Made by a program: the position numbers and the translations under genes
The notes under the pieces: generated by a model
The model's input: the letters and a program-made list of their open reading frames with translations, nothing else
Databases searched by the model: none
What the model was told of the DNA's origin: nothing
NCBI GenBank assembly: GCA_023134715.1
Contig: JAGLUP010000003.1
Coordinates: 2,019 to 66,018 of the forward strand
DNA from: Candidatus Parcubacteria bacterium
GTDB taxonomy: Bacteria > Patescibacteriota > Minisyncoccia > Minisyncoccales > JAGLUP01
Direction: 5' to 3'
DNA: 64,000 bases
In this document: positions 1-51,565 of the stretch, in pieces
How positions within the stretch are numbered: position 1 is the stretch's first letter
Layout of the letters: every line of letters starts with the position of its first letter

Positions 1-260
1 ACCAACGCGCGAATGTCATGTTTTATCCGCCCTTCTTCATCATAAATATCTTCAGTTGTTACTTTTTCACAAGCCAATTCAACCTCTTTAATAACATCAG
101 CTCCGCATATGCCTCGCTTATGCAAGGTTTTTATTAGTGCAATTTCCACCAAAAGCTTATAGCGGGTAAAACCATTTTCAGAAAGATAATGGACAACCTC
201 CTTATCTGGATATCGATAATCTATCGGCGATATACTATCAAACACATCTTGTTTTTTCAT
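1..260 (-). CDS. purB: adenylosuccinate lyase, N-terminal part only (gene runs off window start)
   Basis: Not in ORF track (no stop in window). My translation from ATG at 260..258: MKKQDVFDSISPIDYRYPDKEVVHYLSENGFTRYKLLVEIALIKTLHKRG...GRIKHDIRAL. The SPxDxRY start and HD(I/V) motif match PurB N-termini as I remember them. GAGGTGA Shine-Dalgarno lies 8 nt upstream. Confidence 0.7.
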   Translation of the reverse strand, partial: MKKQDVFDSISPIDYRYPDKEVVHYLSENGFTRYKLLVEIALIKTLHKRGICGADVIKEVELACEKVTTEDIYDEEGRIKHDIRAL

Positions 261-299
261 TTTTTTTATTCACCTCAGTTTTGTTTTTTTTGAATATTC

Positions 300-350
300 A
301 GTTCGTAACGAACTATAGTTCTATCTTATTGAAAAAACAGCAAATGTCAA
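300..350 (-). promoter_or_regulatory. candidate purB promoter (TTGACA-N16-TAAGAT) followed by GTTCG-TAA-CGAAC hairpin
   Basis: Minus-strand TTGACA at 350..345 and TAAGAT at 328..323. Hairpin at 314..300 sits near the predicted 5' end of the mRNA. Confidence 0.4.
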
Positions 351-1113: not shown

Positions 1114-1281
1114 AATAATTCTACTTTCGTTTTTTTCATTTGCATCACCTCATTTTTAAGGAGCTATTTCGCTCTCCTTGGTTTTTATAATAAACAAATT
1201 AAAATTTATGTCAAATTTTAGACAATACAAAAACCCTTTTTCTGATTTTTATAATAAAAAATAAAAAAAGAAAAAAGGGTT

Positions 1282-3595: not shown

Positions 3596-4327
3596 ATGAA
3601 GTTTAATATTAATACAATAAGTGATGAGAAAATTAAAGAAATAGAAAAGATAAAGAATAAACGTTCAATAATTTCGACAATTCAAAAAACAAAACAAAAA
3701 GGATTAAATCCTATTATTGCTGAAATTAAAAGAAAAAGTCCGAGCATTGGGATAATAAAAGATATTGACATTGTGGAAGCTGCGAAACAAATGGAAAAAG
3801 GAGGAGCAAGTGGAATATCAGTGCTTACAGATAAGCATTTTAGCGGGAGATTAGATGATTTAAAAAAAGCAAAACAAGCAGTAAAAATTCCAGTATTATG
3901 CAAAGATTTTTTTGTAGATGAATTTCAGATTTATCAAGCGTATGCTTGCGGCGCAGACATAGTGCTTTTAATTGCAAGGATATTAAAAGAAAAAACCAAA
4001 AGATTTGTAGAAAAAGTTCATGAATTAGGAATGGAGGCCTTGGTTGAAATACACAATGAAGAAGATTTGAAATTTGCTTTAAATTCTAACGCAAAATTAA
4101 TTGGAATAAATAACAGAGATTTGAAGACATTAAAAATAGATTTAGCTGTTACAGAAAGATTGGCGTCAAAAATTCCGCAAGACAGAATAAAAATAAGCGA
4201 AAGCGGAATCAGGAGCAGAACTGATTTAGATAGAATGTTTAATCTCGGCATTGACGCGGCTTTAATCGGAACAGAAATAATGCTGTCTGATAATATAGAA
4301 AAAAAGGTAAAAGAATTAGTTTATTAG
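3596..4327 (+). CDS. trpC: indole-3-glycerol phosphate synthase
   Basis: IIAEIKRKSPS, ISVLTD, CKDFF, EIHNEE, GINNRDL, ISESGI motifs. Confidence 0.85.
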   Translation: MKFNINTISDEKIKEIEKIKNKRSIISTIQKTKQKGLNPIIAEIKRKSPSIGIIKDIDIVEAAKQMEKGGASGISVLTDKHFSGRLDDLKKAKQAVKIPVLCKDFFVDEFQIYQAYACGADIVLLIARILKEKTKRFVEKVHELGMEALVEIHNEEDLKFALNSNAKLIGINNRDLKTLKIDLAVTERLASKIPQDRIKISESGIRSRTDLDRMFNLGIDAALIGTEIMLSDNIEKKVKELVY

Positions 4328-4953: not shown

Positions 4954-5012
4954 TTGACAAAGTTGGGATATTTGGTATGCTTTGCTGTAGAAGGAGCTAA
5001 GCTCCTTTTTTT
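4954..5012 (+). promoter_or_regulatory. candidate ileS promoter (TTGACA-N16-TATGCT) plus leader hairpin AAGGAGC-TAA-GCTCCTT followed by T7
   Basis: TTGACA at 4954..4959, hairpin 4991..5007, T-run to 5012. The -35 is back-to-back with the hicB -35 (TGTCAAcaatagaTTGACA). Confidence 0.45.
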
Positions 5013-5062
5013 ATTTTAGATTTATTTGAAAAAAAGTGGAAAAGATGATATTTTAGAAGTAT

Positions 5063-8000: not shown

Positions 8001-8524
8001 AAAAATTGATTGATAATGATTTAGAAAAAAAAATGAAGCGAGTACGAGAGATTACAGCTTTAGCTTTGGCAGAGCGAGCAGAAATAGGAATAAAAGTCAG
8101 ACAACCACTTAAAAAGCTAAAAATTAAAACACAAAACACAAAAATTCCAGAGGAATTATTAGAGCTAATAAAAGAAGAGGTTAATGTTAAAGAGATAGTT
8201 TTTGATAAAAAAATTAAAAAAGAGATAGAACTTGATGTAAAGATTACTTCAGAGCTAAAAGAAGAGGGAATGCTCAGAGAGGTTATTCGTCAGATTCAGG
8301 TAATGCGGAAAAAAGCTGGGTATAAGCCAAGACACAGAGTTTTGGTCCGCTATTTTGGTTCTTCTTTCTTAAATAAAGTTTTAGCCAGAAATAAAGAGTT
8401 TATTCTAAAAGAAGTTGTGGCTGAAGATTTTCGAGCAGGAGATAGACCGAGAATGGTTTTTGATATTGAACGGGAGGTAAAAGTTAATCAAGAAAAACTC
8501 TGGCTGGGAATCAGAAAAATTTAA
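5063..8524 (+). CDS. ileS: isoleucine--tRNA ligase (type 2-like) with inserted histidine-phosphatase domain
   Basis: 1153 aa. PPFATGLPHYGH (HIGH), WDCHGLP, editing-domain motifs, KLSKRLKN (KMSKS), DCWFESGSMPYAQ. Extra RHG...SHG domain encoded at about 6515..7085. Confidence 0.95.
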   Translation: MEFSLPKNEEKILKFWKEHKIFEKSIEQRKGARIFSFYDGPPFATGLPHYGHILATTIKDAVLRYWAMQGYQVPRRVGWDCHGLPVENLIEKELGLKTKKDIEKLGIGKFNESCHGSVFRCVKEFQKTLERVGRWADYSNAYATMDNNYIESVWWVLAQLHKKGLVYKDFRVTPYCPRCGTALSNFELNQPGAYQEIEDESIYIKFSLKKKKNTYLLVWTTTPWTLPANTAIAINPKFDYVKIKIKNEYFILAKERLNVLSSDYKVIEKFKGKELIGLEYKALYQKIADKTQKTGNIYKVVAADFVSLEDGTGMVHIAPAFGVDDMELGKKENLPVLITVDLEGKIVKDSDIPGEGRFVKTADKDIKEDLEKRDLLFKQEKIIHKYPFCWRCDTPLLYYPLDSWYVAVTKFKEQLIKNNKKIRWVPAHLKEGRFGKWLEKARDWSFSRNRYWGAPLPIWECKECGHNKVISSKEDLKKQKFSNNKYFTLRHGLAQQNVKGIISITPNNNYHLTKIGEIQIKKAAREIKKLLKTQKLDLIFASDFLRTKETAEIIAKETMAKIKFDKRLWDINLGVWDGKSVLRFKAEFLKSNKKLFYEAPEKGETWVNCRKRMIDFIQDVEKKYKNKNILIVSHGDPLWLLGGAMQGLENEEMFGFLDRKKGGVKPGELQEIEYRKFPYNEQGKLDFHRPYIDEVKFICSKCGKKMERVKEVFDCWFESGSMPYAQWHYPFENKEFVEKTFPADFIAEGIDQTRGWFYTLNVLSTALFNEPAFKNVVVNGLVLGEDGKKLSKRLKNYTAPEIIFDNQGADALRYFLLSSAQIGENYIVSEKRIAEVLRRTILTFWNSFIFFDTYADKKFRSSKIKKSKNILDKWIISKLNSLDLEVVELMNKYELTKATRLFDDFINDLSNWYIRRSRRRLQKPKTKQEKEEASQILYYLLLSLTKLLAPFTPFISEEVYQKLGGRKESVHLEDYPKPDKKLIDNDLEKKMKRVREITALALAERAEIGIKVRQPLKKLKIKTQNTKIPEELLELIKEEVNVKEIVFDKKIKKEIELDVKITSELKEEGMLREVIRQIQVMRKKAGYKPRHRVLVRYFGSSFLNKVLARNKEFILKEVVAEDFRAGDRPRMVFDIEREVKVNQEKLWLGIRKI

Positions 8525-15085: not shown

Positions 15086-15146
15086 CAGTTTCTAAATTTT
15101 AAATTCTAAATATAATTTTGGATTTTGGATTTTGGATTTTGGATTT
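15086..15146 (+). repeat. heptamer arrays TTCTAAA/TTTTAAA/TTCTAAA then (TTTTGGA)x4
   Basis: (TTTTGGA)x4 at 15116..15143 is the reverse complement of the TCCAAAA array inside argS. The track ORF start at 15125 lies in this repeat and is probably spurious. Confidence 0.8.
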
Positions 15147-15154
15147 ATGTTATT

Positions 15155-16714
15155 ATGCTTAAATCAAAAAATCTTATTTCAATATTTACTGTTGTTTGCG
15201 CGACCTTGTTTGTCGCGGCAGTAATTTTCGCTTGGAACGAACCCTCGTCTGTTCCTCCTGGAGATAATGTTCCTACTCCTCTTAACACAGGAACCACTGC
15301 TCAAGTAAAAAACGCGAGATTATCCGCTACTGAGTTTTACGACGCTAATGACTCTAAATGCTACATTGATCCAGATGGAGAGAGCGTTCTCGGCAAACAT
15401 TCTAAATTGATTTTTCCTGGTAGTGAAAATTACTGTAAGCCCGATAGCAATTCTTCTTTTGGTGTCGTCATCAGGGTTCATGCCTTAGAAGATATCAGCA
15501 AATTTGACGCAGTAAGCGTAGAGTCTATGAATGCTGTTATTGCTTACAGAGCAGATGCTGATAATATAGATAGACGTCCGGCAATAGGAATAGCGACAGA
15601 AGATATTCCTTCCGGTACTTACGGCCGCGTTTTAATATCGGGTGAGGCGAGCAAGAATAACTGGTTTCCGTTGCCGACAAATCCATCGAGGCAGGTTTAT
15701 TTATCCACAACTCCTGGTCAGCTTACCGTTACTCCTCCCACATCTGCTGACGCTGTGATTCAAGTAATGGGTATTGCAATCGGTCGTCACGCTTTGTTTT
15801 TAAACCCATCGCTTCAATATGAAACAAGCGGCGGCGGAGGCGGAGATGGTAATAATTATGTTACGGGTATTTCATTCTCGGGCGACACTACTAAAACTCT
15901 TACTCTTAATAGAAGCGGTTTAAGCAATCTTACTGCCAATTTTACAGATCTTACTGGCGGAGCCGGCGGCGACGGCAACGATTATGTTGATAGTGTTAAT
16001 TTCAATACAGGCAATGGATTTTTTACTCTTGGTCGTACCGGAACATTATCTGACTTAAGCATAGATTTAGATGGAAGGTATTTGACAAGTTATTCCGAAA
16101 CTGATCCTCAGGTAGGAACTTTAACTAACGGTAAATGGTGTACCACTAACGGTTCCGTAGTGAATTGTACCTCAGATGCTCCTGGCGCCAGCAGTAGCGG
16201 CGATATTAGATTTCCTGACGGATACGAGGGAACCGCCAAAAATATAATTCTTGCTACAGGGAGTTATACCGTGCCTGCGGGAAAGACATTGTATATTACT
16301 ACAATGTTCAACCATCATGGTCTTGGAAACAGTCTTAAGATAGGAGGTGAATTTTATTACGTGATACCACACTATGTTTCTCTTTCTTCGCCTTTAATAG
16401 TCCCAGCAGGCAGTGTTCTAACTAGCAGTTGGGATTCATTAAACATTACGGGCATTGAAGTAAGCTCGGGAGTAACCGCCAAAAATGTAATTCTTGCTAC
16501 AGGAAGCTATACCGTGCCTGCGGGAAAGACATTGTATATTACTACAATGTTCAACCATAAGGATCTTCCGAACTATCTTAAGATAGGAGGTGAATTTTAT
16601 TACGGGATTCCAGCGTCAGACTGTGTTTCTCTTTCTTCGCCTTTAATAGTCCCAGCAGGCAGTGTTCTAACTAGCAGTTGGGATTCATTAAACATTACGG
16701 GCTATGAAAAGTAA
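15155..16714 (+). CDS. membrane-anchored, fibre-like surface protein with internal tandem repeats; function unknown
   Basis: Start moved to in-frame ATG MLKSKN. TM helix, then AWNEPSSVPPGDNVPTPLNTG. Gly-rich GDGNxYV repeats and two ~80-aa C-terminal repeats. Visibly GC-richer than its surroundings. Confidence 0.6.
   Translation: MLKSKNLISIFTVVCATLFVAAVIFAWNEPSSVPPGDNVPTPLNTGTTAQVKNARLSATEFYDANDSKCYIDPDGESVLGKHSKLIFPGSENYCKPDSNSSFGVVIRVHALEDISKFDAVSVESMNAVIAYRADADNIDRRPAIGIATEDIPSGTYGRVLISGEASKNNWFPLPTNPSRQVYLSTTPGQLTVTPPTSADAVIQVMGIAIGRHALFLNPSLQYETSGGGGGDGNNYVTGISFSGDTTKTLTLNRSGLSNLTANFTDLTGGAGGDGNDYVDSVNFNTGNGFFTLGRTGTLSDLSIDLDGRYLTSYSETDPQVGTLTNGKWCTTNGSVVNCTSDAPGASSSGDIRFPDGYEGTAKNIILATGSYTVPAGKTLYITTMFNHHGLGNSLKIGGEFYYVIPHYVSLSSPLIVPAGSVLTSSWDSLNITGIEVSSGVTAKNVILATGSYTVPAGKTLYITTMFNHKDLPNYLKIGGEFYYGIPASDCVSLSSPLIVPAGSVLTSSWDSLNITGYEK
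16232..16702 (+). repeat. tandem duplication (period 243 nt) inside the surface-protein gene with two short hypervariable patches
   Basis: 16232..16452 vs 16475..16702 are near-identical. They differ at HHGLGNS/HKDLPNY and VIPHY/GIPASDC. Confidence 0.85.
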
Positions 16715-18398: not shown

Positions 18399-19928
18399 AT
18401 GAATCAAATTATTATTTTAGGGATAGGCGTGATATGCTTATCTATGGGAGCGGTTTTAGGATATTTGACCCGTCAGTCCATTGCCAGAAGAGACCATAGA
18501 ACAATTGAGGCAAAAATTCACAAAAAGATTTCTCAGGCGAAAGAAGAGGTGGAGACAATACTTTCTTCTGCTCGAAATAAGGCGGCTAAAATCGCCGAGC
18601 AAGCTCAAAAAGAGACAATTCAGGGAAGGAGAGAGCTTTCTAAAACAGAGCAACTTTTATTAAAAAGAGAACATGTCTTAGATAAAAGAATTTCTGGTTT
18701 AGACCAGCAAGAAAAGGATTTTCAGCAAAAAGTAGAGAAGCTTAAAGGAATTAAAGAAAGATTGGAAGAACTGAAGGAAGAAACCTTGAAAAAATTAGAA
18801 AAAGCAGGTAATCTTTCAGAAAAAGAAGCAAAAAAAGAGCTTTTAAAGAATGTAGAACAGAAACACCAACAGGAAATTTTAAGCAAGATAAGAGAATTGG
18901 AAAAACAGGGGATTGAAAAGTTTGAAAAAAAAGCCAAAGAGATTGTCGCTTTAGCAATTCAGAAATATGCGCCTTCGCAAGCGCAGGAAATAACAACAAC
19001 CACTATTAGCCTGCCTAATGAAGAAATTAAGGGAAGAATTATTGGAAAAGAAGGAAGAAACATTAGAGCATTTGAAAAATTGACAGGAGTAGAAGTGGTA
19101 ATTGACGAAACTCCGCAATTGGTCGTTCTTTCCGCCTTTAATCCAATTCGGCGACATATCGCTAAAATTGCTTTAGAAAAATTAATTCAGGATGGCCGAA
19201 TTCAGCCGACAAGAATTGAGGAAGAGATAGCCGCTGCTCAGGAGCAAATTACCAAAGAAGTAAAAGAAGCTGGAGAAGCCGCGGTTTATGACGTCGGAGT
19301 AATCGGGCTTGACCCAAAGCTTATTCAGCTTTTAGGTCGACTGAAGTTCAGGACCAGTTTCGGGCAGAGCGTTTTGCTTCACTCAATTGAAGTTGCTCAT
19401 TTAGCCGGAGCCTTGGCTCAAGAGCTTGGAGCTGATGTTAGAATAGCAAGAACAGCTGGCCTTTTGCATGATATAGGAAAATCAATTGACCGCCAGATAG
19501 AGGGCTCCCATGTTGACATTGGAATAAAAATTTTAGAAAAATTTAAAGTAGAAAAGGAGGTTATTGACGCGATGAAATCTCATCATGAAGAGTATCCTTA
19601 TGAAAGCTTAGAAGCGGTTTTGATTCAGACAGCAGACGCTATTTCCGGAGCCAGACCGGGCGCGAGAAAAGATACTTTAGAAAATTATCTTAAACGGTTA
19701 GGAGAGTTAGAAGATATCGCTACTTCTTTTTCTGGCGTGAATAAAGCGTACGCGATTCAAGCTGGAAGAGAAATTAGGGTTTTTGTCAATCCTCAAGAGG
19801 TTGACGACATTGGAGCTTATAATTTAGCTCGGGGTATTGCGAAACGAATTGAAGAAGAATTAAAATATCCAGGAGAAATAAAAGTTAATGTGATTAGAGA
19901 AAGCAGAGTAGTAGAATACGCTAAGTAA
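18399..19928 (+). CDS. rny: ribonuclease Y
   Basis: 509 aa. N-terminal TM, coiled coil, KH (GRIIGKEGRNIRAFE) and HD (GLLHDIGK) domains. Confidence 0.95.
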   Translation: MNQIIILGIGVICLSMGAVLGYLTRQSIARRDHRTIEAKIHKKISQAKEEVETILSSARNKAAKIAEQAQKETIQGRRELSKTEQLLLKREHVLDKRISGLDQQEKDFQQKVEKLKGIKERLEELKEETLKKLEKAGNLSEKEAKKELLKNVEQKHQQEILSKIRELEKQGIEKFEKKAKEIVALAIQKYAPSQAQEITTTTISLPNEEIKGRIIGKEGRNIRAFEKLTGVEVVIDETPQLVVLSAFNPIRRHIAKIALEKLIQDGRIQPTRIEEEIAAAQEQITKEVKEAGEAAVYDVGVIGLDPKLIQLLGRLKFRTSFGQSVLLHSIEVAHLAGALAQELGADVRIARTAGLLHDIGKSIDRQIEGSHVDIGIKILEKFKVEKEVIDAMKSHHEEYPYESLEAVLIQTADAISGARPGARKDTLENYLKRLGELEDIATSFSGVNKAYAIQAGREIRVFVNPQEVDDIGAYNLARGIAKRIEEELKYPGEIKVNVIRESRVVEYAK

Positions 19929-33273: not shown

Positions 33274-34688
33274 TTTATATTAGAAATTTTGAATTTCATA
33301 TTTTTTTTATTTCGTGTTTTAGTTGAATAATATTGAGTTAATTTTTTCGCCTTATTTAAGGAGCTTAGCTCCCGGAGCTTAGCTCCTTGGTAATTACGGA
33401 TTAAGGCTAGAGGACCGGGATAATCTTTCATTTCAATTAAAATATCGTGGGGTTTTGCGAGTTTTTTGATTTTTTTATTTTCTTCATTATTTCGCCCAAC
33501 GATAATTTTTACCCAAATTTTTTCGCGTAGTTTTGCGTTTCTGGTTTTGTGTCTGTTTTGCGGTTTTAACCAGAAATGCCGTCCTACTTTTAGTAATTCA
33601 ATATCATTACCCTGACATTGAGGATAAATTTTCAACAATTTTTTAAATCGTTTGCTAAATTCCGGGTCAGTCAAGAGACAGCCGCCAGAAGGAGATGGGT
33701 ATTGTTTGACTTTGAATTTTTTAGCCAAAGCAATTTGTTTTTTTCTTGAACGACCGGAGATATTAAAAGGTTTGGCAGAGAGCGGTCTTATCAGTAACCC
33801 TTCAAGAGATGATTTTTTTTCAGTGAATTCAAGAGATTTTTTGTTTTGCGTCATTGGCCTTTGCCCTAAAACTTCACCTGTGGCAATAAATCCATATTTT
33901 TCTTTTTCCATTATTTCCTTGGCTTTTTTTAACATTAGAATGCGGCAGTCAAGGCATGGGTTCATTTCTTTTCCATAACCATATTCTGGCGATTTCATTA
34001 CTTTTAAATGTTCTTTAGAAATATCAATTATTTTTAATTTAATTCCTAAATTTTTTGCCGATTTTTTCGCTTCTTTAGCGCCAAAAAAATAACTTTTAAA
34101 AGTTATCCCTGTTATTTTTATTCCCTGTTTTTGTAGAATTTTTGCGACTAAAATAGAATCCAGCCCTCCAGAGAACAAGACAAGAGCCGTAGAAGATTTT
34201 ATGAAATAAATTTTTCGCAAGATAGCTTCAAATTCTTTTAAATTTTTTACGCAATAATCAATTTTTTTATTGTTTGGTTTTTGGAAATATCTTCCTTCGC
34301 CTCGGTTCATTCTTATAGTTATTAAATTAGGAAAGAATTTTTTGGTTTCAAGCAGAGCTTGAGGATTGTCATCAATAAATATAGCTGTCTCTTGTTTCTT
34401 GAGAATTTTTTTCATTCCCTCCATCTTTGCAATATTTGGAGTGACAACTATTTTTTTAAAATAATGAGCTATTTTTGAATTTTGAATTTTCTTTTTTTGG
34501 AATTTTTCTTCTCCGAAAGATAAAATAAAAAGTTCAAAATTTTTCTTTACCTTTCTTAGAAGAGGAATAACATCAGGATATAAAAATTGGCAAGATTGAT
34601 TTAGCCCTTTTTCTAAATTTTTTTTTATAACTTTGCGGAATTTTTCTGTTTCAAATAGAGTATGGTCAAAATCAAAAATAATTTTCAT
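33270..34688 (-). CDS. fusion of HAD-like hydrolase domain and PP-loop ATPase (ThiI/MnmA-like tRNA thiolation family)
   Basis: 472 aa. DFDHTLF (HAD motif I), LFSGGLDS (PP-loop), NPCLDCR, TGEVLGQRPMTQ. Confidence 0.65.
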   Translation of the reverse strand: MKIIFDFDHTLFETEKFRKVIKKNLEKGLNQSCQFLYPDVIPLLRKVKKNFELFILSFGEEKFQKKKIQNSKIAHYFKKIVVTPNIAKMEGMKKILKKQETAIFIDDNPQALLETKKFFPNLITIRMNRGEGRYFQKPNNKKIDYCVKNLKEFEAILRKIYFIKSSTALVLFSGGLDSILVAKILQKQGIKITGITFKSYFFGAKEAKKSAKNLGIKLKIIDISKEHLKVMKSPEYGYGKEMNPCLDCRILMLKKAKEIMEKEKYGFIATGEVLGQRPMTQNKKSLEFTEKKSSLEGLLIRPLSAKPFNISGRSRKKQIALAKKFKVKQYPSPSGGCLLTDPEFSKRFKKLLKIYPQCQGNDIELLKVGRHFWLKPQNRHKTRNAKLREKIWVKIIVGRNNEENKKIKKLAKPHDILIEMKDYPGPLALIRNYQGAKLRELSSLNKAKKLTQYYSTKTRNKKNMKFKISNIK

Positions 34689-38071: not shown

Positions 38072-39880
38072 TTATTCCACGGTTACGCTTTTTGCTAAAT
38101 TTCTTGGCTTGTCTATGTCTAAGCCAAGCTCAAGACCTAAATAAGCGGCGAATAAATGCAAAGGAATGGCCGCTAAAATAGGGGTTAGCATTTCTAATGT
38201 TTTTGGGATATAGATAACATCATCGGCTAAGTTTTTAATTTCTTGATTTTTTTCAGTAGTAATAGCAATTACTAATCCTTTTCTGGCTTTAATTTCTTCT
38301 ATTGCATTTTTCATTTTATCATAAACTGAATCATAAGGACAGAGGCAAACTGTAGGAAAATTTTCATCAATTAAAGCGAGCTGACCGTGTTTTATTTCGC
38401 CGGCAGGCATTCCTTCGGCATGAATTTTCCATGCAATTTCTTTTAATTTTAATGCTCCTTCTAAAGCAATAGGATAATTATATTTTCTTCCTAAAAAGAA
38501 AAAGTTTTTATATTCAGAATATTTTTCAGCCAATTCTTTTATTTTATCAGCTTGTTCTAATGTTTTTTTAGCTAGCTCAGGTAATTTTTGCAATTCGTTT
38601 AGAATTTTTTTGCCGGTTACTAAGTCCATTTCTCTTTGTCTGCCCAAGGCAACCGTAATAAGAACTAAAATACATAGTTGAGAGATAAAGGATTTAGTGG
38701 CAGCCACGCCGATTTCAGGCCCAATTCGATTATAGACCCCAGCGTCAGTTTCTCGAGCGATTGAAGACCCAACTGCATTAACTATTCCTAAAGTTAAGCA
38801 TTTTTTTCTTTTTGCTTCTTTTATTGCTTCTAATGTGTCAGCTGTTTCTCCAGATTGAGAAATGGCTAAAACAGCTGTTTTTTCATCTAAAATTGGTTTT
38901 TTATAGCGAAATTCTGAAGATATTTCTGTTTTTATTGGCAGGCCAATATATTCTTCAAACATATACTCTCCAACTTGAGCCGCGTGTTGGGCCGTGCCGC
39001 AGCCAATAAGAGTTATTTTTTCTATTTTTTTTAATCTATCTAAAACCTCTTCTAGCCCTCCTAATTTAACCAACCCTTTATCTGGAATTATTCTTCCAGC
39101 TATGCTTTTTTCAATTGATTCAGGTATTTCAAAAATTTCTTTCAGCATAAAATGGGAAAATTCTTTTTTCTCTGCTTCCTCAATTTTCCATTCAATTTTT
39201 TCTATAGGTTTTTCTTTTAAAATAAAAAAATCATTAGGCGAGATTACGGCTATTTCATTGTCGTCTAAAGTAATTACCTGCCGAGTATGAGAAACTATAG
39301 CAGATGGATCTGACGCCACTAAAAATTCGTTATGGTTAATTCCTAATAACAACGGAGAACCAAGTTTTGCCGCTACTAATTTTTCAGGGTCTTTTTTAGA
39401 AATTACAGCAATTCCATAAGTTCCTCTAAGTTTTTTTAATGTTTTTCTTACTGCTTCTTCTAAGTTGTTTTGAAAGTGTTTTTCAATTAAATGAGCAATA
39501 ACTTCAGAGTCAGTTTCTGAAGAAAATTTATGTCCTTCAGAAATTAATTTTTCCTTTAGCTTTTTATAATTCTCAATAATTCCGTTATGAACAACAAAAA
39601 TATTTTTTTGACAGTCAAAATGCGGATGCGCGTTAGCGTCAGTAACAGCGCCGGTAGTCGCCCAACGAGTATGACCAATGCCTAAATTTCCTTTAATATT
39701 TTTCTGTGATTTATTTTTATATTCAGAAATTTTTCCTGTTTTTTTCAACAAAAAGTCATTATTTTTTCCTAAAATAAAAAAGCCAAAAGAGTCATACCCT
39801 CTGTACTCTAATTTTTTTAATCCTGAAAGCAAAATCGGAAAAGCATTTTTTTTACCAATGTAGCCAATAATCCCACACAT
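38072..39880 (-). CDS. glmS: glutamine--fructose-6-phosphate aminotransferase
   Basis: 602 aa. MCGIIGY start, two SIS domains, C-terminal KSVTVE. Confidence 0.95.
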   Translation of the reverse strand: MCGIIGYIGKKNAFPILLSGLKKLEYRGYDSFGFFILGKNNDFLLKKTGKISEYKNKSQKNIKGNLGIGHTRWATTGAVTDANAHPHFDCQKNIFVVHNGIIENYKKLKEKLISEGHKFSSETDSEVIAHLIEKHFQNNLEEAVRKTLKKLRGTYGIAVISKKDPEKLVAAKLGSPLLLGINHNEFLVASDPSAIVSHTRQVITLDDNEIAVISPNDFFILKEKPIEKIEWKIEEAEKKEFSHFMLKEIFEIPESIEKSIAGRIIPDKGLVKLGGLEEVLDRLKKIEKITLIGCGTAQHAAQVGEYMFEEYIGLPIKTEISSEFRYKKPILDEKTAVLAISQSGETADTLEAIKEAKRKKCLTLGIVNAVGSSIARETDAGVYNRIGPEIGVAATKSFISQLCILVLITVALGRQREMDLVTGKKILNELQKLPELAKKTLEQADKIKELAEKYSEYKNFFFLGRKYNYPIALEGALKLKEIAWKIHAEGMPAGEIKHGQLALIDENFPTVCLCPYDSVYDKMKNAIEEIKARKGLVIAITTEKNQEIKNLADDVIYIPKTLEMLTPILAAIPLHLFAAYLGLELGLDIDKPRNLAKSVTVE

Positions 39881-39919: not shown

Positions 39920-40009
39920 TTGACAAATCCATTAAAACAGGTAAGTTAAAACTACGAGAGAGTTCGCTCTTTCAAAATTTAATTTAAACAAAAACGAGGT
40001 GAATGAAAA
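39920..40009 (+). promoter_or_regulatory. leader cassette copy 1: TTGACA-N16-TAAGTT promoter, GAGAGAG-UUCG-CUCUUUC hairpin, GAGGTGA RBS
   Basis: About 80% identical to the copies at 41046 and 41526. Hairpin at 39956..39973. Confidence 0.6.
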
Positions 40010-41020
40010 ATGGAAGAATTTATACAAAAATTAACAGATGGCAAAAATCTAACTACAAAGGAGTCCGAAAAAGTAATGGAGATTATTATGTCTGGAAAGG
40101 CAACATGCGCGCAGATTAAATCTTTTTTAAGATTGTTAGATGAGAAAGGCGAAACATCTAAAGAGATTGCGGGTTTTGCAAAAATTATGCGAAAATTTGC
40201 AGAAACAATAAAGCCAGAGGTTGATAGAATGCTGGTTGATATGTGCGGGACAGGCGGTGATGCGCTTAAGACATTTAATATATCAACAACCTCAATGTTT
40301 ATCGTCGCGGCTTGCGGGATTCCTGTTGCAAAGCACGGGAACAGGGCGATAACATCCAAATGCGGAAGCGCCGACGTGCTTGAGGAATTAGGGATTAATC
40401 TAAATTTAAGTTTTGGAAAAATCAAAGAGGGAATTGAAAAAGTAGGAATAGGATTTATGTTTGCGCCCGCTCACCACTTAGCGATGAAGCATGTCATGCC
40501 TGCGCGACAAGAACTTAATATGAGAACGGTTTTTAATATACTTGGGCCGCTTACCAATCCGGCGAATGCAAACGCTCAAGTGATGGGAGTTTTCAATTCC
40601 AATCTTACGGAAACGCTTGCCGAGGTTTTTAGGATATTAGGGATTGAAAGGGCAATGGTCGTTCACGGTGAGCCGGGTCTTGATGAGATATCAACTATGG
40701 GAGAGACGAAAATTTCAGAATTATATAAAGGGAGGATTGAAACTTACCATATAATGCCTGAGGATTTTGGTTTACGCAGAGCAAAAGAAAAAGATTTAGT
40801 TGGTCGTAGTACAACAAAGAATGCGAGAATTTTAAAGAGTATTCTCAGAGGAGAGGATGCGGGCCCAAGAACAGATATTGTTCTTTTGAATTCTGCAGCC
40901 GGAATTGTGCTTGGAGGAAGAGCAAAGAATTTAAACCATGGTTTGAATATAGCGAGGGATGTGTTGGATAGAGGCGAGGCCTATGAGAAACTTCGGGAAT
41001 TTATTGAATTTGCAAGATAA
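40010..41020 (+). CDS. trpD: anthranilate phosphoribosyltransferase
   Basis: 336 aa. CGTGGDALKTFNIST, AKHGNRAITSKCGSADVLEELG motifs. Terminator ACATGGG-GCAA-CCTATGT+T8 at 41020..41044. Confidence 0.8.
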   Translation: MEEFIQKLTDGKNLTTKESEKVMEIIMSGKATCAQIKSFLRLLDEKGETSKEIAGFAKIMRKFAETIKPEVDRMLVDMCGTGGDALKTFNISTTSMFIVAACGIPVAKHGNRAITSKCGSADVLEELGINLNLSFGKIKEGIEKVGIGFMFAPAHHLAMKHVMPARQELNMRTVFNILGPLTNPANANAQVMGVFNSNLTETLAEVFRILGIERAMVVHGEPGLDEISTMGETKISELYKGRIETYHIMPEDFGLRRAKEKDLVGRSTTKNARILKSILRGEDAGPRTDIVLLNSAAGIVLGGRAKNLNHGLNIARDVLDRGEAYEKLREFIEFAR

Positions 41021-41045
41021 CATGGGGCAACCTATGTTTTTTTTA

Positions 41046-41136
41046 TTGACAAATTTAGAAAAACAGGTAAGTTAAAACTACGAGAGGGCGTTGCTCTTTC
41101 CAAACTTAATTTGAATGAAATGAGGTGAATGAAAAA
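41046..41136 (+). promoter_or_regulatory. leader cassette copy 2
   Basis: TTGACAAATTTAGAAAAACAGGTAAGTTAAAACTACGAGAGGGCGTTGCTCTTTCC...GAGGTGAATGAAAAAATG. Hairpin at 41082..41100. Confidence 0.6.
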
Positions 41137-41493
41137 ATGGGAATAGCTAAATTCATATCAGACGCAAGAAAGGAAGATAATAAAAGATTGGAAGAGCAAA
41201 TAGCAAGAAATTTATTGATAAACTGGCATCGCGCGCTGGAAGAAAGCAACGAAACCGATGTAAAATGGTATATCCAAGAAGAATCGGTTGAAGTGTTAAA
41301 AAGAATAGCTGGAATGGACGTGGAGTCGCCAGTAAAAAAGTTGGTAGAGAAAGAGCTTTTGCGCAGGAGAAAGGAGCAATTGGATAATAAGCAGGAGCAA
41401 AGGATGAGAAAAAGAGAATTAAAAGTGAAGAGAGCAAGAGAAACAGGAGGAAAGACGGTGATAGGCGGTAAATGTTGCGCTAACGTAAAATAA
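41137..41493 (+). CDS. hypothetical 118-aa K/E/R-rich protein
   Basis: Start set to the ATG 7 nt after GAGGTGA (MGIAKFISD...); the track uses an upstream GTG. No recognised domain. Own terminator at 41493..41525. Confidence 0.55.
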   Translation: MGIAKFISDARKEDNKRLEEQIARNLLINWHRALEESNETDVKWYIQEESVEVLKRIAGMDVESPVKKLVEKELLRRRKEQLDNKQEQRMRKRELKVKRARETGGKTVIGGKCCANVK

Positions 41494-41525
41494 CCTGGGA
41501 ATTAATCTCAGGTCTTTTATTTTTG

Positions 41526-41622
41526 TTGACAAATTTGGGAAAGCGAGTAAAGTAAAATCACTGAGAGAGCATTGCTCTTTCCAAATTTAATTGATGAAAA
41601 ACAAAAATAGGTGAATGAAAAA
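41526..41622 (+). promoter_or_regulatory. leader cassette copy 3
   Basis: TTGACAAATTTGGGAAAGCGAGTAAAGTAAAATCACTGAGAGAGCATTGCTCTTTCC...AGGTGAATGAAAAAATG. Hairpin at 41563..41581. Confidence 0.6.
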
Positions 41623-42057
41623 ATGGACACAATAGTTCAAACTGGACTTAAGAAAGGAGAAGAGGATAGAAAAAGAAAAAAAGAAGAAAAGAAAAAACCG
41701 GAAGAAAAAAAAAGGTTTTTGAAAGAAGACGCAAAAAAATTAATCAGAACGGAAAAGGAAGTGAGGAAAGCGATAAAGATAATAAGAGCGAGGGAGCAAG
41801 AACTACTTACAGAGGAAGAATTCAAAACAGCGATGGGCAAAATTTCAGAAGATGCTCTTAGAAAATTGGCTAAGGGTGAAGAGTTTATGGCTGGTCCTGC
41901 GTTAGAGTCTCTTTGCGCAAAGGGAAAAATGGACCCTGAAGTACTTTTAACAAATCCGAATCTAAGTATTAGAAAGATAGGCGCGAAGATACTTAGGCAG
42001 GTTTTTGAAACTGTGAGCAAAAAGGCTGAATTTAAAAATCGCCTTGGGGCGATTTAA
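41623..42057 (+). CDS. hypothetical 144-aa protein, very K/E-rich N-terminus with a helical-repeat-like C-terminus
   Basis: Start set to the ATG after the RBS (MDTIVQTGL...). No recognised domain. Terminator GACCTAA-TTCAAC-TTAGGTC at 42076..42106. Confidence 0.55.
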   Translation: MDTIVQTGLKKGEEDRKRKKEEKKKPEEKKRFLKEDAKKLIRTEKEVRKAIKIIRAREQELLTEEEFKTAMGKISEDALRKLAKGEEFMAGPALESLCAKGKMDPEVLLTNPNLSIRKIGAKILRQVFETVSKKAEFKNRLGAI

Positions 42058-42097
42058 GAGACATATTTGTTTAATGACCTAATTCAACTTAGGTCTT

Positions 42098-42682
42098 TTA
42101 TTTTTGTTTCATTACTGCTTCAATCGCTTCAACTGTTTGTTTCATAATTTGTTTAACAATTTTTTCTTCGTCTTTTGTGAATTTTTCCAGAACAAAATTT
42201 TCAGCACCAGGGAACGGTCTATATGACTGCTCGGGTTTTATTCCGAGGCGGAAGCGGGTAAAGTTTTTTGTTTTAATTTCGTCAATTATTGATTGGACTC
42301 CTTTATGGCCGGCAGAGCGACTATCTTGAGAAATTTTTATTTTTCCTAAAGGCAAATCTAAATCGTCATGTATTACTATAATATCTGAGCTTTTAATTTT
42401 ATAAAAAGCAATTAGAGATTTGACCGCTTGTCCAGAATTATTCATAAATGTCTGAGGTTTTGCCAAGATAATTTTTTCTCCACTCAAAACAGCCTTAGAA
42501 ATCAAAGCATTATTTTTTTTTGCTTGTCCGCCGAAGCCTCGGCGAAGGCGGAATAATTCAAAAACAGGAAAATCATTTTTCTTTCTAAATTCGTCAATAA
42601 CTTGAAAACCAAAATTATGCCGGGTTTTTTGATATTTTTCCTCAGGATTCCCTAATCCTATGATTAAAATTGATTGCTTCAT
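42098..42682 (-). CDS. pth: peptidyl-tRNA hydrolase
   Basis: 194 aa. GLGNPEEKYQKTRHNFGF, IVIHDDLDLPLGKIK, GHKGVQSI motifs. Confidence 0.9.
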   Translation of the reverse strand: MKQSILIIGLGNPEEKYQKTRHNFGFQVIDEFRKKNDFPVFELFRLRRGFGGQAKKNNALISKAVLSGEKIILAKPQTFMNNSGQAVKSLIAFYKIKSSDIIVIHDDLDLPLGKIKISQDSRSAGHKGVQSIIDEIKTKNFTRFRLGIKPEQSYRPFPGAENFVLEKFTKDEEKIVKQIMKQTVEAIEAVMKQK

Positions 42683-48704: not shown

Positions 48705-48878
48705 ATGAAGTTAATAAAAAGAAATCCGAATGTGAATAACCAAACTCAATCTAAATTATTTTCATTTTTTAATAAACCAGTTTCTACTCACGCGGGAATC
48801 GCAATCATTATGGTTGCGTTTTCCGTTTTTGGAGTAAAGGATTTGATTTTTAGGGAAAAATTTGTTAAAGTAAAATAA
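48705..48878 (+). CDS. 57-aa ORF: duplicated 5' fragment of the 49362 membrane-protein gene reading through into the next cassette promoter
   Basis: MKLIKRNPNVNNQTQSKLFSFFNKPVSTHAGIAIIMVAFSVFGVKDLIFREKFVKVK. 48791..48823 is identical to 49421..49453. Confidence 0.6.
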   Translation: MKLIKRNPNVNNQTQSKLFSFFNKPVSTHAGIAIIMVAFSVFGVKDLIFREKFVKVK

Positions 48879-49346: not shown

Positions 49347-49361
49347 ATTAGTTTTAAAGAT

Positions 49362-50582
49362 ATGAACATCCGAAATCAATCTAATTTACTTTCATTTTTC
49401 AATAAACGACTCTCTGCTCGCGCGGGAATCGCAATCATTATGGTTGCGTTTTCTATTTGCGCGGGAATTCTGGTTTGGCAAGCGGAATTATTGAAACAGG
49501 AAATGAGGGCATTAGAAATGGTTCCAGAATCAAAAGAAAAAACCAAGATATACTTAACCATAGACGCTCTTGAAAATGCTAAATATTATGTTGTTGCGTA
49601 TGGTGAAACAGTTTTGCTTAAAGATGGTTATTATCGAGAGGAACATCCTGGAATGGCATCTGGATTGGAAGTTGCTATTTATAAAAATAAGATAGTTTTT
49701 GGCGATTTGAATAATGACGGAAAAAAGGATGCCGCTGTGATTTTACGTAGCAGTGGAGGAGGAAGCGGTGATTTTCGCGAGCTGGCTATTATGATAAATG
49801 AAGACGGAAAACCCAATTATTTTATTTCAAAAGAATTAGGGGATAGAGTAATAATAGATTCTATAACCATACAATCAGGAATAATTGTTCTTGATATGAT
49901 TGTTCACGGTCCTAGCGATGGTTTGTGTTGCCCTACATTAAAAAAGATAGGTAGATACAAATTATCTAAAGATCAATTATTAGAGATGACAGAAGACGAA
50001 ACTATGAATTGGAAAACTTATATAAATGAAGAATATGAGTTTGAGATAAAATATCCGTCCAAGTATGAGATTTCTAAAATGACCGCAACAGATGTTGCTC
50101 CTGCAATTAAAGCAGATTCGTATGCTCAAATAATCTTTAGAGATTTAACAGGATTTTTTACAAAAGAAGAAATAGACCAGAAAAAAATCAATTCAGAAAA
50201 AATAATAGTAGGGGGGATAGAAGCATTTCGTTCTTCTTTAGGAGGAAATATGGATAGCGGAATAGAATTTTTTGTTTCATTTTACGATTATCCGAAAAAA
50301 GGAATGATTTTTAATATCCTTTTTTCTACTCATCAGCCCGAAAGAGAAGAAGAAATAAATACTTTTAATCAAATGCTTTCTACTTTTAAGTTTATTGAAA
50401 AAATTCCTGAAATATTGAAATCTCCACTAATTGGTGCTCCTGAAGAAATCGAAAAGGCTAAATTAGAATTTTGTCGAGAGGTTTGTAAGGCCTGGCTAGG
50501 AAAAATGGTGGAAGATTCAAAATGTGAATTGCAAACGGGTGAAGTTTATTCTTGCGAAGAGCTGATTGAAAAATTACGTTAA
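49362..50582 (+). CDS. membrane-anchored extracytoplasmic protein of unknown function (full-length copy of the duplicated 5' end)
   Basis: 406 aa. N-terminal signal anchor AGIAIIMVAFSICAGILVW, a GDLNNDGKKDAAVIL (FG-GAP/VCBS-like) segment and WKTYINEEYEFEIKYP. Confidence 0.6.
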   Translation: MNIRNQSNLLSFFNKRLSARAGIAIIMVAFSICAGILVWQAELLKQEMRALEMVPESKEKTKIYLTIDALENAKYYVVAYGETVLLKDGYYREEHPGMASGLEVAIYKNKIVFGDLNNDGKKDAAVILRSSGGGSGDFRELAIMINEDGKPNYFISKELGDRVIIDSITIQSGIIVLDMIVHGPSDGLCCPTLKKIGRYKLSKDQLLEMTEDETMNWKTYINEEYEFEIKYPSKYEISKMTATDVAPAIKADSYAQIIFRDLTGFFTKEEIDQKKINSEKIIVGGIEAFRSSLGGNMDSGIEFFVSFYDYPKKGMIFNILFSTHQPEREEEINTFNQMLSTFKFIEKIPEILKSPLIGAPEEIEKAKLEFCREVCKAWLGKMVEDSKCELQTGEVYSCEELIEKLR

Positions 50583-51386: not shown

Positions 51387-51388
51387 TT

Positions 51389-51565
51389 ATGGATAGTCAA
51401 ACCCAATCTAATTTATCTTTATTTTTTAACAAACGAATTTCTACTCTTTTAGGATTCGCAATCATTATGATTGCGATTTTAATTTGTGTAGGAATTTTGT
51501 CTAAGCAATATTTACAAATGGCGAGAGCAGAAATCAAAATGCTTGAAATAAAGGTGTCGGAATAA
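51389..51565 (+). CDS. 58-aa ORF: truncated paralogue of the 49362 gene 5' end
   Basis: MDSQTQSNLSLFFNKRISTLLGFAIIMIAILICVGILSKQYLQMARAEIKMLEIKVSE aligns with residues 1-55 of the 49362 product, then stops. Confidence 0.55.
   Translation: MDSQTQSNLSLFFNKRISTLLGFAIIMIAILICVGILSKQYLQMARAEIKMLEIKVSE

What the first reader, a model, noticed from the sequence alone, without database searches (positions are those of the whole stretch)
39920..42108. trpD and two unknown K/E-rich small genes each sit behind a paralogous ~90-nt promoter/5'-hairpin/RBS cassette
Seen: 39920..40009, 41046..41136 and 41526..41622 align at about 80% identity. Each has TTGACAAAT..., GTAAGTTAAAACTAC, a 7-8 bp hairpin GAGAG(N)...CUCUUUC whose loop varies (UUCG / GGCGUUG / CAUUG) while the pairing is kept, an A/T-rich spacer, and GAGGTGAATGAAAAA(A)ATGG. 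The two small genes also end with terminators sharing an identical 18-nt tail, AGGTCTTTTATTTTTGTT (41510..41527 and 42091..42108), although their proteins show no similarity I can see. The block looks GC-richer than average: I count 28 G+C in the 60-nt line starting 40201, against 19 in the line starting 6601. Inference: these are modular expression cassettes with conserved flanks and swapped ORFs, or a shared cis-regulatory leader (mRNA-stabilising 5' hairpin or protein-binding site) coupling trpD to two uncharacterised proteins.
Basis: partly seen in the sequence, partly recalled or inferred. Interest (0 to 1): 0.65.

Follow-up and report, generated by a model that had tools for sequence, protein, structure and literature searches.

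The report
Duplicated promoter-leader module before three genes
In a Parcubacteria (CPR) genome, one ~95-base promoter / 5'-hairpin / ribosome-binding module has been copied three times in a row, driving a trpD gene of archaeal type and two orphan small genes; this is a clean example of the known phenomenon of promoter reuse, not a new regulatory RNA.

Summary
Three ~95-nt copies lie at 39920-40013, 41046-41140 and 41526-41626, 79-86% identical without gaps. Homology starts at the TTGACA -35 box and stops at ATG(G). No further close copy exists in the window or in 9 kb beyond it, and none was found in three public collections. Each copy has TTGACA-16 nt-TAAGTT/TAAAGT, a 7-8 bp hairpin starting 8-9 nt after the -10 box, an A/U-rich spacer, a GAGGTGA Shine-Dalgarno and ATG. 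Each gene ends in an intrinsic terminator, so these are three monocistronic units. TrpD is intact. Its nearest relatives (71-72% identity) sit in complete archaeal trpEGDCFBA operons, so it was probably acquired horizontally. The two small proteins are unrelated to each other and have no homologue in billions of proteins, yet show normal coding signal. Rfam finds nothing. The design is not trp-specific: the purB, pyrF and ileS leaders share the promoter-plus-5'-hairpin design, and purB and pyrF also carry the SD. It is also not generic: 49 of 54 gene starts lack any SD and many look leaderless. Best reading: local promoter/leader propagation ("putative mobile promoter") wiring foreign or novel genes. 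Interest is moderate-low.

The parts
39920..40012 (+). Cassette copy 1, upstream of trpD: -35 TTGACA 39920-39925; -10 TAAGTT 39942-39947; hairpin GAGAGAG/UUCG/CUCUUUC 39956-39973; SD GAGGTGA 39996-40002; ATG 40010
   Evidence: 109 bits; -7.9 kcal/mol
40010..41020 (+). trpD, anthranilate phosphoribosyltransferase, 336 aa, full length with native N-terminus and conserved GTGGD / KHGNR / GPLTNP / GLDE motifs; the relatives that carry a source name are archaeal (Altiarchaeota, Alkanophagales) apart from one Patescibacteria entry
   Evidence: (TIGR01245 433.7 bits, cutoff 199)
41019..41046 (+). Intrinsic terminator of trpD (8-bp stem, GCAA loop, T-run) running into the -35 box of copy 2
41046..41139 (+). 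Cassette copy 2, upstream of orf118: -35 41046-41051; -10 TAAGTT 41068-41073; hairpin GAGAGGGC/GUU/GCUCUUUC 41082-41100; SD 41122-41128; ATG 41137
   Evidence: 115.5 bits; -9.1 kcal/mol
41137..41493 (+). orf118 (KAS79_01480): 118-aa orphan protein, 42% K/R/E/D, predicted helical
   Evidence: self hit only; coding log-odds 0.309 vs genes 0.349 sd 0.064; no shuffle gives an ORF this long
41493..41527 (+). Intrinsic terminator of orf118; its tail AGGTCTTTTATTTTTGTT runs into the -35 box of copy 3
41526..41625 (+). Cassette copy 3, upstream of orf144: -35 41526-41531; -10 TAAAGT 41548-41553; hairpin GAGAGAGC/AUU/GCUCUUUC 41563-41581; SD AGGTGA 41609-41614; ATG 41623
   Evidence: 104.4 bits; -9.7 kcal/mol
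41623..42057 (+). orf144 (KAS79_01485): 144-aa orphan protein, 44% K/R/E/D, long N-terminal helix
   Evidence: exhaustive HMMER over 1.84 billion representatives: self only; log-odds 0.384
42076..42108 (+). Intrinsic terminator of orf144, homologous to the orf118 terminator (28 nt at 89%, with one G-C to A-U compensatory change); its T-tail overlaps the last codons of the convergent pth gene
   Evidence: sequence
258..350 (-). Probable distant fourth family member: purB leader with TTGACA-16-TAAGAT, a hairpin of different sequence (AGUUCG/UUA/CGAACU) at the same position, an A-rich spacer, GAGGTGA and ATG
   Evidence: 37.1 bits, E about 2e-4, full-length match; 5 of 8 pairs changed on both sides, all still paired

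Best explanation
The 2.2-kb block between glmS and pth consists of three autonomous monocistronic units, arranged as P-L-trpD-T, P-L-orf118-T', P-L-orf144-T'. I think they arose by local duplication (propagation) of one promoter-leader-RBS module, in two cases together with the adjoining terminator tail. The copies were placed, or kept by selection, exactly in front of three unrelated ORFs. The module works as a general-purpose expression adaptor, in five steps. (1) A sigma-70-type promoter: TTGACA, 16 nt, TAAGTT or TAAAGT. (2) Transcription starts about 7 nt after the -10 box, so the 7-8 bp GAGAGAG(C)/(G)CUCUUUC stem-loop sits at the very 5' end of the mRNA. There it would hinder 5'-end-dependent decay by RNase Y or RNase J type enzymes. 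(3) An unstructured A/U-rich spacer follows. (4) A canonical SD (GAGGUGA) lies 7-8 nt before the ATG. (5) An intrinsic terminator ends each unit. The module gives bacterial expression signals to a trpD gene taken out of an archaeal-type trp operon, and to two lineage-specific orphan genes. Shown here: the motifs, the spacing, the sharp homology boundaries, the terminators, the archaeal affinity of TrpD, the orphan status and coding signal of the small ORFs, and the recurrence of the architecture at other leaders. Inferred: the transcription start, the stabilising role of the hairpin, actual SD use, and the direction and order of the duplications.
For: Homology runs exactly from the -35 box to ATG(G) and has no continuation into the ORFs. 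Conservation is concentrated in the functional elements: the -35 box, the -10 box and the start region, both stem arms (8 of 8 columns in the 3' arm), and the stretch from SD to ATG. The -35/-10 spacer, the hairpin loop and the A-rich spacer vary. This is the pattern expected for duplicated and still functional signals. All three genes have terminators, and two of these are homologous to each other. The family meets the published operational definition of putative mobile promoters: at least 50 nt at 80% identity or more upstream of non-homologous CDSs (PMC3488235). Copies c1-c2 are 83.9% identical over 93 nt. TrpD's closest relatives (71-72%) lie in trpEGDCFBA operons next to archaeal markers. 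Of the named top hits, 13 are Altiarchaeota, 3 are Alkanophagales and 1 is Patescibacteria. TrpD is full length with its native start. GC3 of all three genes is above the host mean. No Rfam family matches. The hairpin is far more stable on the sense RNA (-7.9, -9.1, -9.7) than on the antisense (-4.1, -1.5, -6.5 kcal/mol). Four independent leadered promoters in the window carry a hairpin starting 7-9 nt after the -10 box. In the purB leader the stem sequence is different but the pairing is kept. An RNase Y gene is present at 18399-19928. 5'-terminal stem-loops are established stabilisers in ompA, papA and aprE (reference list of PMC3997798).
Against: No transcription start data exist, so the 5'-terminal position of the hairpin rests only on the -10 spacing. 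The hexamer TAAGTT matches TATAAT at only 3 of 6 positions, and the promoter scan tool listed only copy 3. The stem is almost invariant in the three copies, and the only covariation comes from one distant, model-fitted sequence. Only 73 kb of the 391-kb scaffold could be searched, so the true family size in the genome is unknown. Most genes here lack an SD, and about half of Parcubacteria reportedly lack the anti-SD motif (PMC9297842). Whether GAGGUGA acts as an SD in this organism is therefore unproven. Precise junctions at the start codon are not easily produced by random duplication, so selection, gene conversion or another mechanism must be invoked.
Confidence: 0.6

Rival explanations
1. 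The conserved leader is a dedicated cis-regulatory site: an operator at +1 to +20 for a repressor, or a hairpin bound by an RNA-binding protein. On this view trpD, orf118 and orf144 form a small regulon, and the small proteins are functionally linked to TrpD.
For: The imperfect palindrome GAGAGAGC/GAAAGAGC overlaps the predicted start, which is a typical repressor position. The 11-mer CAAAYTTAATT after the stem is conserved without an obvious role. Identical signals necessarily give similar expression to all three genes.
Against: No Rfam family matches. The -35/-10 spacer and the upstream DNA are not conserved. The same architecture with other stem sequences precedes the unrelated genes purB, pyrF and ileS. 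The small proteins have no homologues, so no co-occurrence with trpD exists, and trpD relatives lack the element. The G-U pairs favour an RNA structure over a DNA palindrome.
Confidence: 0.15
2. The whole island, cassettes included, was acquired en bloc from an SD-using bacterial donor in which the duplications had already happened. The cassette would then be foreign rather than a host module.
For: All three ORFs have raised GC3 (0.32-0.39 against 0.263) and extreme purine skew. A perfect SD is exceptional in this window. Canonical TTGACA promoters, strong SDs and 5' stabilisers are typical of Firmicute-like genomes (general knowledge).
Against: A related leader precedes purB about 40 kb away, and the same design precedes pyrF and ileS. 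This argues that the module is at home in this genome. Pattern scans of 185,579 species genomes, the JGI metagenomes and IMG/VR found no copy of the leader elsewhere; all 15 loci hit lacked the cassette flanks. The cassette's own GC (0.30-0.33) is host-like.
Confidence: 0.12
3. The two small genes are de novo genes, created when copies of the promoter-RBS-ATG module were placed in front of previously non-coding, purine-rich sequence.
For: There are no homologues in 5.8 billion clustered proteins, nor, for orf144, in an exhaustive HMMER scan of 1.84 billion representatives. The proteins are K/E/R-rich and predicted as long, low-confidence helices with no fold match. Homology ends exactly at ATGG.
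Against: Codon log-odds in the annotated frame are typical of real genes and negative in the other five frames. ORFs of 118 and 144 codons never arise in 2000 shuffles. Their GC (0.37-0.39) is well above that of host intergenic DNA. Orphan status is common in CPR genomes and is equally explained by fast evolution or by unsampled donors.
Confidence: 0.1
4. The repeats are parts of a mobile genetic element (integron-type gene cassettes, a MITE with an outward promoter, or prophage morons), or they are an assembly artefact.
For: The layout of promoter, ORF and terminator with atypical composition resembles phage morons. Conserved flanks around swapped ORFs resemble cassette arrays.
Against: No integrase, transposase or phage gene lies within 10 kb either side (gene table). 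No terminal inverted repeats or flanking direct repeats were found. The terminator hairpins are 7-8 bp, not attC-like. There is no match in the phage, plasmid, PHROGs or PADLOC libraries. An independent assembly is identical.
Confidence: 0.03

Closest known systems
Putative mobile promoters / promoter propagation (Matus-Garcia, Nijveen & van Passel 2012, PMC3488235; PMC3575422)
   Same: Highly similar 50-100+ nt sequences immediately upstream of non-homologous CDSs within one genome. Conservation extends to within a few nt of the start codon, as in their Treponema brennaborense family (-5 to -120). They proposed a role in wiring silent or acquired genes.
   Different: Here the three copies are adjacent in tandem rather than dispersed. 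They carry a complete leader (5' hairpin plus SD). Two copies also share the upstream terminator tail. The host is a CPR bacterium whose other genes mostly lack an SD.
5'-terminal stem-loop mRNA stabilisers (E. coli ompA and papA; B. subtilis aprE leader; reviewed in PMC3997798)
   Same: A short stable hairpin predicted at or within a couple of nt of the mRNA 5' end, followed by a strong RBS. An RNase Y gene is present in the genome.
   Different: No sequence relationship. The transcription start and the stabilising effect are untested here.
Phage 'morons' (autonomous promoter-ORF-terminator units with atypical composition; from general knowledge, not checked in the literature here)
   Same: Each gene is an independent transcription unit with its own promoter and factor-independent terminator. 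The block differs in composition from its neighbours.
   Different: There is no prophage context, since the neighbours are glmS, pth, lepB and hisS. All three units share one paralogous promoter.
Integron gene cassettes
   Same: Conserved flanks with unrelated ORFs in a tandem array.
   Different: Integron cassettes are normally promoterless and carry attC sites next to an integrase. Here each unit has its own promoter, and there is no attC or integrase.

Membership tests
Putative mobile promoter (PMP) family, as defined in PMC3488235 | [quoted passage not shown] | tested here: met
   All three copies end at the ATG and begin 90-97 nt upstream
Putative mobile promoter (PMP) family, as defined in PMC3488235 | Alignment of at least 50 nt at 80% identity or more | tested here: met
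   c1-c2 is 83.9% over 93 nt. c2-c3 is 78.2% over 110 nt by BLAST, or 81% ungapped over the 95-nt cassette. c1-c3 is 74.8%. The three are linked as a family through c2.
Putative mobile promoter (PMP) family, as defined in PMC3488235 | Downstream and upstream CDSs not homologous | tested here: met
   BLASTP E = 5.2 between the small proteins. DNA alignments of the ORFs are no better than shuffles, apart from one low-complexity purine stretch. The upstream genes are glmS, trpD and orf118.
Sigma-70-type promoter | -35 and -10 hexamers with a 16-18 nt spacer | tested here: met
   TTGACA-16-TAAGTT in two copies and TTGACA-16-TAAAGT in the third. The -10 box matches the consensus at only 3-4 of 6 positions, and activity was not tested.
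5'-terminal stem-loop mRNA stabiliser | Stem-loop at or within a few nt of the transcript 5' end | tested here: inconclusive
   The hairpin starts 8-9 nt after the -10 box in all copies and 7-8 nt after it in three other leaders. The transcription start is not mapped.
5'-terminal stem-loop mRNA stabiliser | Removing or unpairing the stem shortens mRNA half-life | not testable with these tools
   Needs reporter or half-life experiments
Known cis-regulatory RNA (riboswitch, T-box, r-protein leader; Rfam 15) | Covariance-model match at or near the gathering score | tested here: not met
   Nothing reaches gathering score. The best hits at E up to 10 are chance-level snoRNA, sRNA and frameshift-element models at 16-20 bits.
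Intrinsic (factor-independent) terminator | G+C-containing stem-loop followed by a T-run directly after the stop codon | tested here: met
   Three sites at 41019-41038, 41493-41513 and 42076-42095, each followed by a T-run. Four were found in the region against 1.6 expected.
Integron gene cassette array | attC recombination sites and an adjacent integrase with attI | tested here: not met
   No integrase-family gene within 10 kb either side. The inter-ORF hairpins are 7-8 bp terminators, and no long imperfect attC-like inverted repeats were found.
TrpD (anthranilate phosphoribosyltransferase, TIGR01245) | Full-length match above the curated cutoff, with catalytic motifs present | tested here: met
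   433.7 bits against a cutoff of 199. GTGGD, KHGNR, GPLTNP and GLDE are conserved in the alignment with relatives.

The most novel reading that the evidence does not exclude
In a Parcubacterium whose core genes are translated without Shine-Dalgarno sequences (leaderless or SD-less), a self-propagating, hairpin-capped, SD-bearing promoter module might serve as the genome's 'plug-in adaptor' for accessory genes. It would domesticate genes captured from archaea (trpD) and switch on newly born or captured orphan ORFs. The genome would then run two translation-initiation regimes, one for core genes and one for acquired genes.
Probability: 0.15. Interest if true: 0.7.

Novelty: new member of a known kind. 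Interest (0 to 1): 0.35.

Why it matters
It is a compact natural example of how a gene cut out of a foreign operon (here of archaeal type) acquires a complete set of bacterial expression signals: by reuse of an existing promoter/leader module. It also shows that in this CPR genome a canonical SD-led leader with a 5' hairpin is the exception among mostly SD-less and apparently leaderless genes. That contrast bears on how translation initiation works in Parcubacteria, about half of which reportedly lack the anti-SD motif, and it could be tested directly on this genome. The cassette could also serve as a native expression part for future CPR genetics. It does not reveal a new class of regulatory RNA or a new trp regulation mechanism.

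Tried and rejected
- **Rfam.** I searched at gathering score over the window and at E up to 10 over the block. Only tRNAs and chance hits appeared.
- **Collection scans.** I scanned GTDB species genomes, JGI metagenomes and IMG/VR for GAGAGNGN{2,5}CTCTTTCNAAANTTAA. The 15 loci hit (14 distinct sites) all lacked the cassette flanks, so I treat them as chance matches. The source genome itself is evidently not in those collections, so the genome-wide copy number could not be obtained.
- **Covariance model.** The model was run on the window, on 9 kb beyond it and on the archaeal trp loci. It found only the three copies plus weak purB and ileS leader matches.
- **Homology between the ORFs.** I compared the two small ORFs, and each with trpD, at protein level, at DNA level and in all frames. 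Only a low-complexity purine stretch aligned.
- **Homologues of the small proteins.** I searched Pfam, NCBIfam, PHROGs, PADLOC, PDB sequences and a Foldseek search of the orf118 model. Nothing was found. The AlphaFold models are helical and of low confidence.
- **Antisense ORFs.** Two long antisense ORFs (94 and 127 aa) have no credible Pfam match (one sub-threshold chance hit) and negative coding scores.
- **Phage and plasmid DNA.** The small-gene region has no match in either collection.
- **Mobile-element signatures.** I looked for terminal inverted repeats, target-site duplications and a nearby integrase. None was found.
- **Left extension of the window.** The lookup through pyrF failed because the annotated product differs from the ORF I submitted.
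Full report
**What is there.**
The 129-nt gap between glmS (38072-39880, minus strand) and the first plus-strand gene opens a 2.2-kb block that ends at the stop codon of the convergent pth gene (42098-42682, minus strand). The block holds three plus-strand genes:
- trpD, 40010-41020. It scores 433.7 bits on TIGR01245, against a cutoff of 199.
- orf118, 41137-41493.
- orf144, 41623-42057.

The sequence comes from a Candidatus Parcubacteria MAG (locus tags KAS79_01480 and KAS79_01485; ENA scaffold of 391 kb). An independent Logan assembly is 100% identical over 7.8 kb.

**The repeat.**
The three upstream regions align from TTGACA to ATGG.
- Ungapped identity is 86%, 81% and 79%. BLAST gives 83.9% over 93 nt, 78.2% over 110 nt and 74.8% over 103 nt.
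- The homology has sharp edges. It starts at the -35 box (for copies 2 and 3 it also covers the preceding terminator tail) and stops at the start codon.
- Beyond ATGG, the first 70 nt of the ORFs align no better than shuffles. The last 90 nt of the two small ORFs likewise align no better than shuffles. Whole-ORF comparisons find only a purine-rich low-complexity stretch.
- Motif searches and a covariance model built from the three copies find no other close copy in the 64-kb window. The copies score 104-116 bits and the next hit 37 bits.
- There is none in 9 kb beyond the window, and none in the archaeal trp loci.
- Exact-pattern scans of 185,579 species genomes, the JGI metagenomes and IMG/VR returned only hits without the cassette flanks, which I treat as chance matches.

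**Anatomy.**
Each copy reads, in order:
- TTGACA, then 16 nt, then TAAGTT (TAAAGT in copy 3);
- 8-9 nt, then a 7-8 bp hairpin, GAGAGAG(C) paired with (G)CUCUUUC;
- CAAAYTTAATT and an A-rich spacer;
- (G)AGGTGA, then 7-8 nt, then ATG.

Other features of the units:
- The hairpins fold at -7.9 to -9.7 kcal/mol on the sense RNA, against -1.5 to -6.5 on the antisense, because of G-U pairs.
- Variation between the copies falls in the -35/-10 spacer, the loop and the A-rich spacer. The functional elements are nearly invariant.
- Each gene is followed by an intrinsic terminator (41019-41038, 41493-41513, 42076-42095).
- The terminators of the two small genes are homologous: 28 nt at 89%, including the identical 18-mer, with one G-C to A-U compensatory change.

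The block is therefore three monocistronic units: P-L-trpD-T, P-L-orf118-T', P-L-orf144-T'.

**The genes.**
- TrpD is full length, has its native N-terminus, and keeps the catalytic motifs.
- Its nearest relatives (71-72% identity) lie inside complete trpE-G-D-C-F-B-A operons, next to archaeal markers such as Fae-Hps and a Hel308-type helicase.
- The named top hits are 13 Altiarchaeota, 3 Alkanophagales and 1 Patescibacteria. The gene was therefore probably captured from an archaeal-type operon, where it has no promoter of its own.
- GC3 of the three genes (0.35, 0.39, 0.32) is above the window mean of 0.263 (sd 0.045). The coding strand is 60-72% purine (59.5% for trpD, 69-72% for the small ORFs).
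- The two small proteins have no homologue in 5.8 billion clustered proteins. For orf144, an exhaustive HMMER scan of 1.84 billion representatives also found only the protein itself.
- They match no family, PDB sequence or fold.
- They nevertheless show frame-specific codon scores typical of this genome's genes (0.31 and 0.38, against 0.35 with sd 0.06; the other five frames are negative). Their ORF lengths were never reached in 2000 shuffles.
- They are K/E/R-rich and predicted helical at low confidence.

**Is the leader specific or generic?**
It is neither a dedicated trp element nor a genome-wide consensus.
- Rfam finds no known RNA family.
- The same architecture occurs at three other leaders in the window: TTGACA, 16 nt, TAnnnT, then 7-8 nt, then a hairpin. 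In two of them an A-rich spacer and GAGGTGA follow. These are purB (350 to 258, minus strand), pyrF (1214 to 1143, minus strand) and, without a clear SD, ileS (4954-5062).
- The purB leader is a full-length 37-bit match (E about 2e-4) with similar -10 and SD regions but a completely different stem that still pairs. Five of its 8 pairs are changed on both sides. This is a single, model-fitted sequence.
- Random 32-nt windows reach -7.5 kcal/mol or lower only 4.6% of the time. Three of the four independent leaders do so, in the same register.
- By contrast, 49 of 54 gene starts in the window have no SD at all.
- Many first genes carry a TAnAAT box exactly 6 nt before the ATG (glmS, pth, lepB and others), which is the signature of leaderless mRNAs.
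- Published work reports the anti-SD motif in only 48% of Parcubacteria (PMC9297842).
- An RNase Y gene lies at 18399-19928.

**Interpretation.**
The data fit the published concept of promoter propagation, or "putative mobile promoters": at least 50 nt at 80% identity or more upstream of non-homologous CDSs. More than 4000 such families have been described, some conserved from -5 to -120 relative to the start codon (PMC3488235). Here one complete expression module has been copied locally and now drives a foreign trpD and two orphan genes. The module comprises a promoter, a 5'-terminal stem-loop, an SD and a start codon. The hairpin most likely acts like the 5' stem-loop stabilisers of ompA, papA and aprE (references in PMC3997798). 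That role and the transcription start are inferred, not shown. I found no evidence of a functional link between TrpD and the small proteins beyond their shared signals.

**Rivals.**
Four alternatives remain possible, in decreasing order of likelihood:
- a specific operator or RNA-binding site;
- en bloc acquisition of the island from an SD-using donor;
- de novo birth of the small genes behind duplicated cassettes;
- a mobile element or assembly artefact (no integrase, TIRs, TSDs or phage/plasmid similarity; an independent assembly is identical).

**Limits.**
- Only 73 kb of the 391-kb scaffold could be searched.
- The 16S rRNA is not in the window.
- orf118 did not receive the exhaustive profile search.

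**Verdict.**
This is a new member of a known kind (promoter reuse). Its interesting context is a rare SD-led, hairpin-capped leader in an otherwise SD-poor CPR genome, attached to a gene of archaeal origin and two orphans.

Noticed in passing
whole window; e.g. 39880 (glmS, -), 42682 (pth, -), 42735 (lepB, +), 56462 (+), 61244 (+): 49 of 54 gene starts have no Shine-Dalgarno motif. Many first genes have a TAnAAT box exactly 6 nt before the ATG, which is the leaderless-type signature. A perfect GAGGTGA SD occurs only at trpD, orf118, orf144 (AGGTGA), purB and the pyrF leader, plus two genes just beyond the window (L024 14619, GGR-like; L024 19714, an unknown 211-aa protein next to a Y1 transposase gene).
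   Followed up: partly
window 3596-4327 (+): A trpC gene (PF00218, 64% identical to the TrpC of the archaeal-type operons) sits 5 nt after argS, with no cassette and with host-like GC3 (0.225). The genome thus holds at least two trp genes of archaeal type, at separate loci 36 kb apart. No other trp gene is in the window.
   Followed up: partly
window 5063-8524 (+): The isoleucyl-tRNA synthetase-like gene (1153 aa) carries a histidine-phosphatase (His_Phos_1) domain inserted at residues 489-655, inside the catalytic domain.
   Followed up: no
window 1094-1150 (-): In the pyrF leader, the SD plus an ATG at 1138 opens only a 14-codon ORF (MKKTKVELLWHWMI*) that overlaps the in-frame GTG start at 1113. 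One extra A in the A7 run would fuse it to pyrF. This is either a homopolymer error or frameshift, or a small uORF with two Trp codons.
   Followed up: partly
window 371, 4993, 33360-33390; L024 19575-19605: A recurrent palindromic unit, GGAGC-TTA/TAA-GCTCC, occurs as the pyrF terminator, in the ileS leader, and as tandem pairs (one pair inside the 3' end of the thiI-like gene). It may be a small REP-like hairpin family.
   Followed up: no
window 4954-4988 and L024 19607-19641: The ileS promoter and the promoter of the unknown 211-aa gene share TTGACAAA...TATGCTT(T/A)GCTGT. This may be a second pair of paralogous core promoters in this genome.
   Followed up: partly
window 16231-16708 (+): Tandem repeats of 243-249 nt (91-96% identical) lie inside a 529-aa ORF (15125-16714) that has no Pfam match.
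   Followed up: no
window 48731-48851, 49361-49481, 51388-51508: Three copies of a 121-nt repeat (73-86% identical) lie in a region rich in small toxin-antitoxin-like genes (HicB-like, MazE, PIN).
   Followed up: no
window 41179-41199 vs 41091-41111 and 41572-41592: A stretch inside orf118 (AATAAAAGATTGGAAGAGCAA) is 71-76% complementary to the 3' arm and downstream part of the leader hairpin in copies 2 and 3. This is probably chance in purine-rich coding sequence.
   Followed up: no
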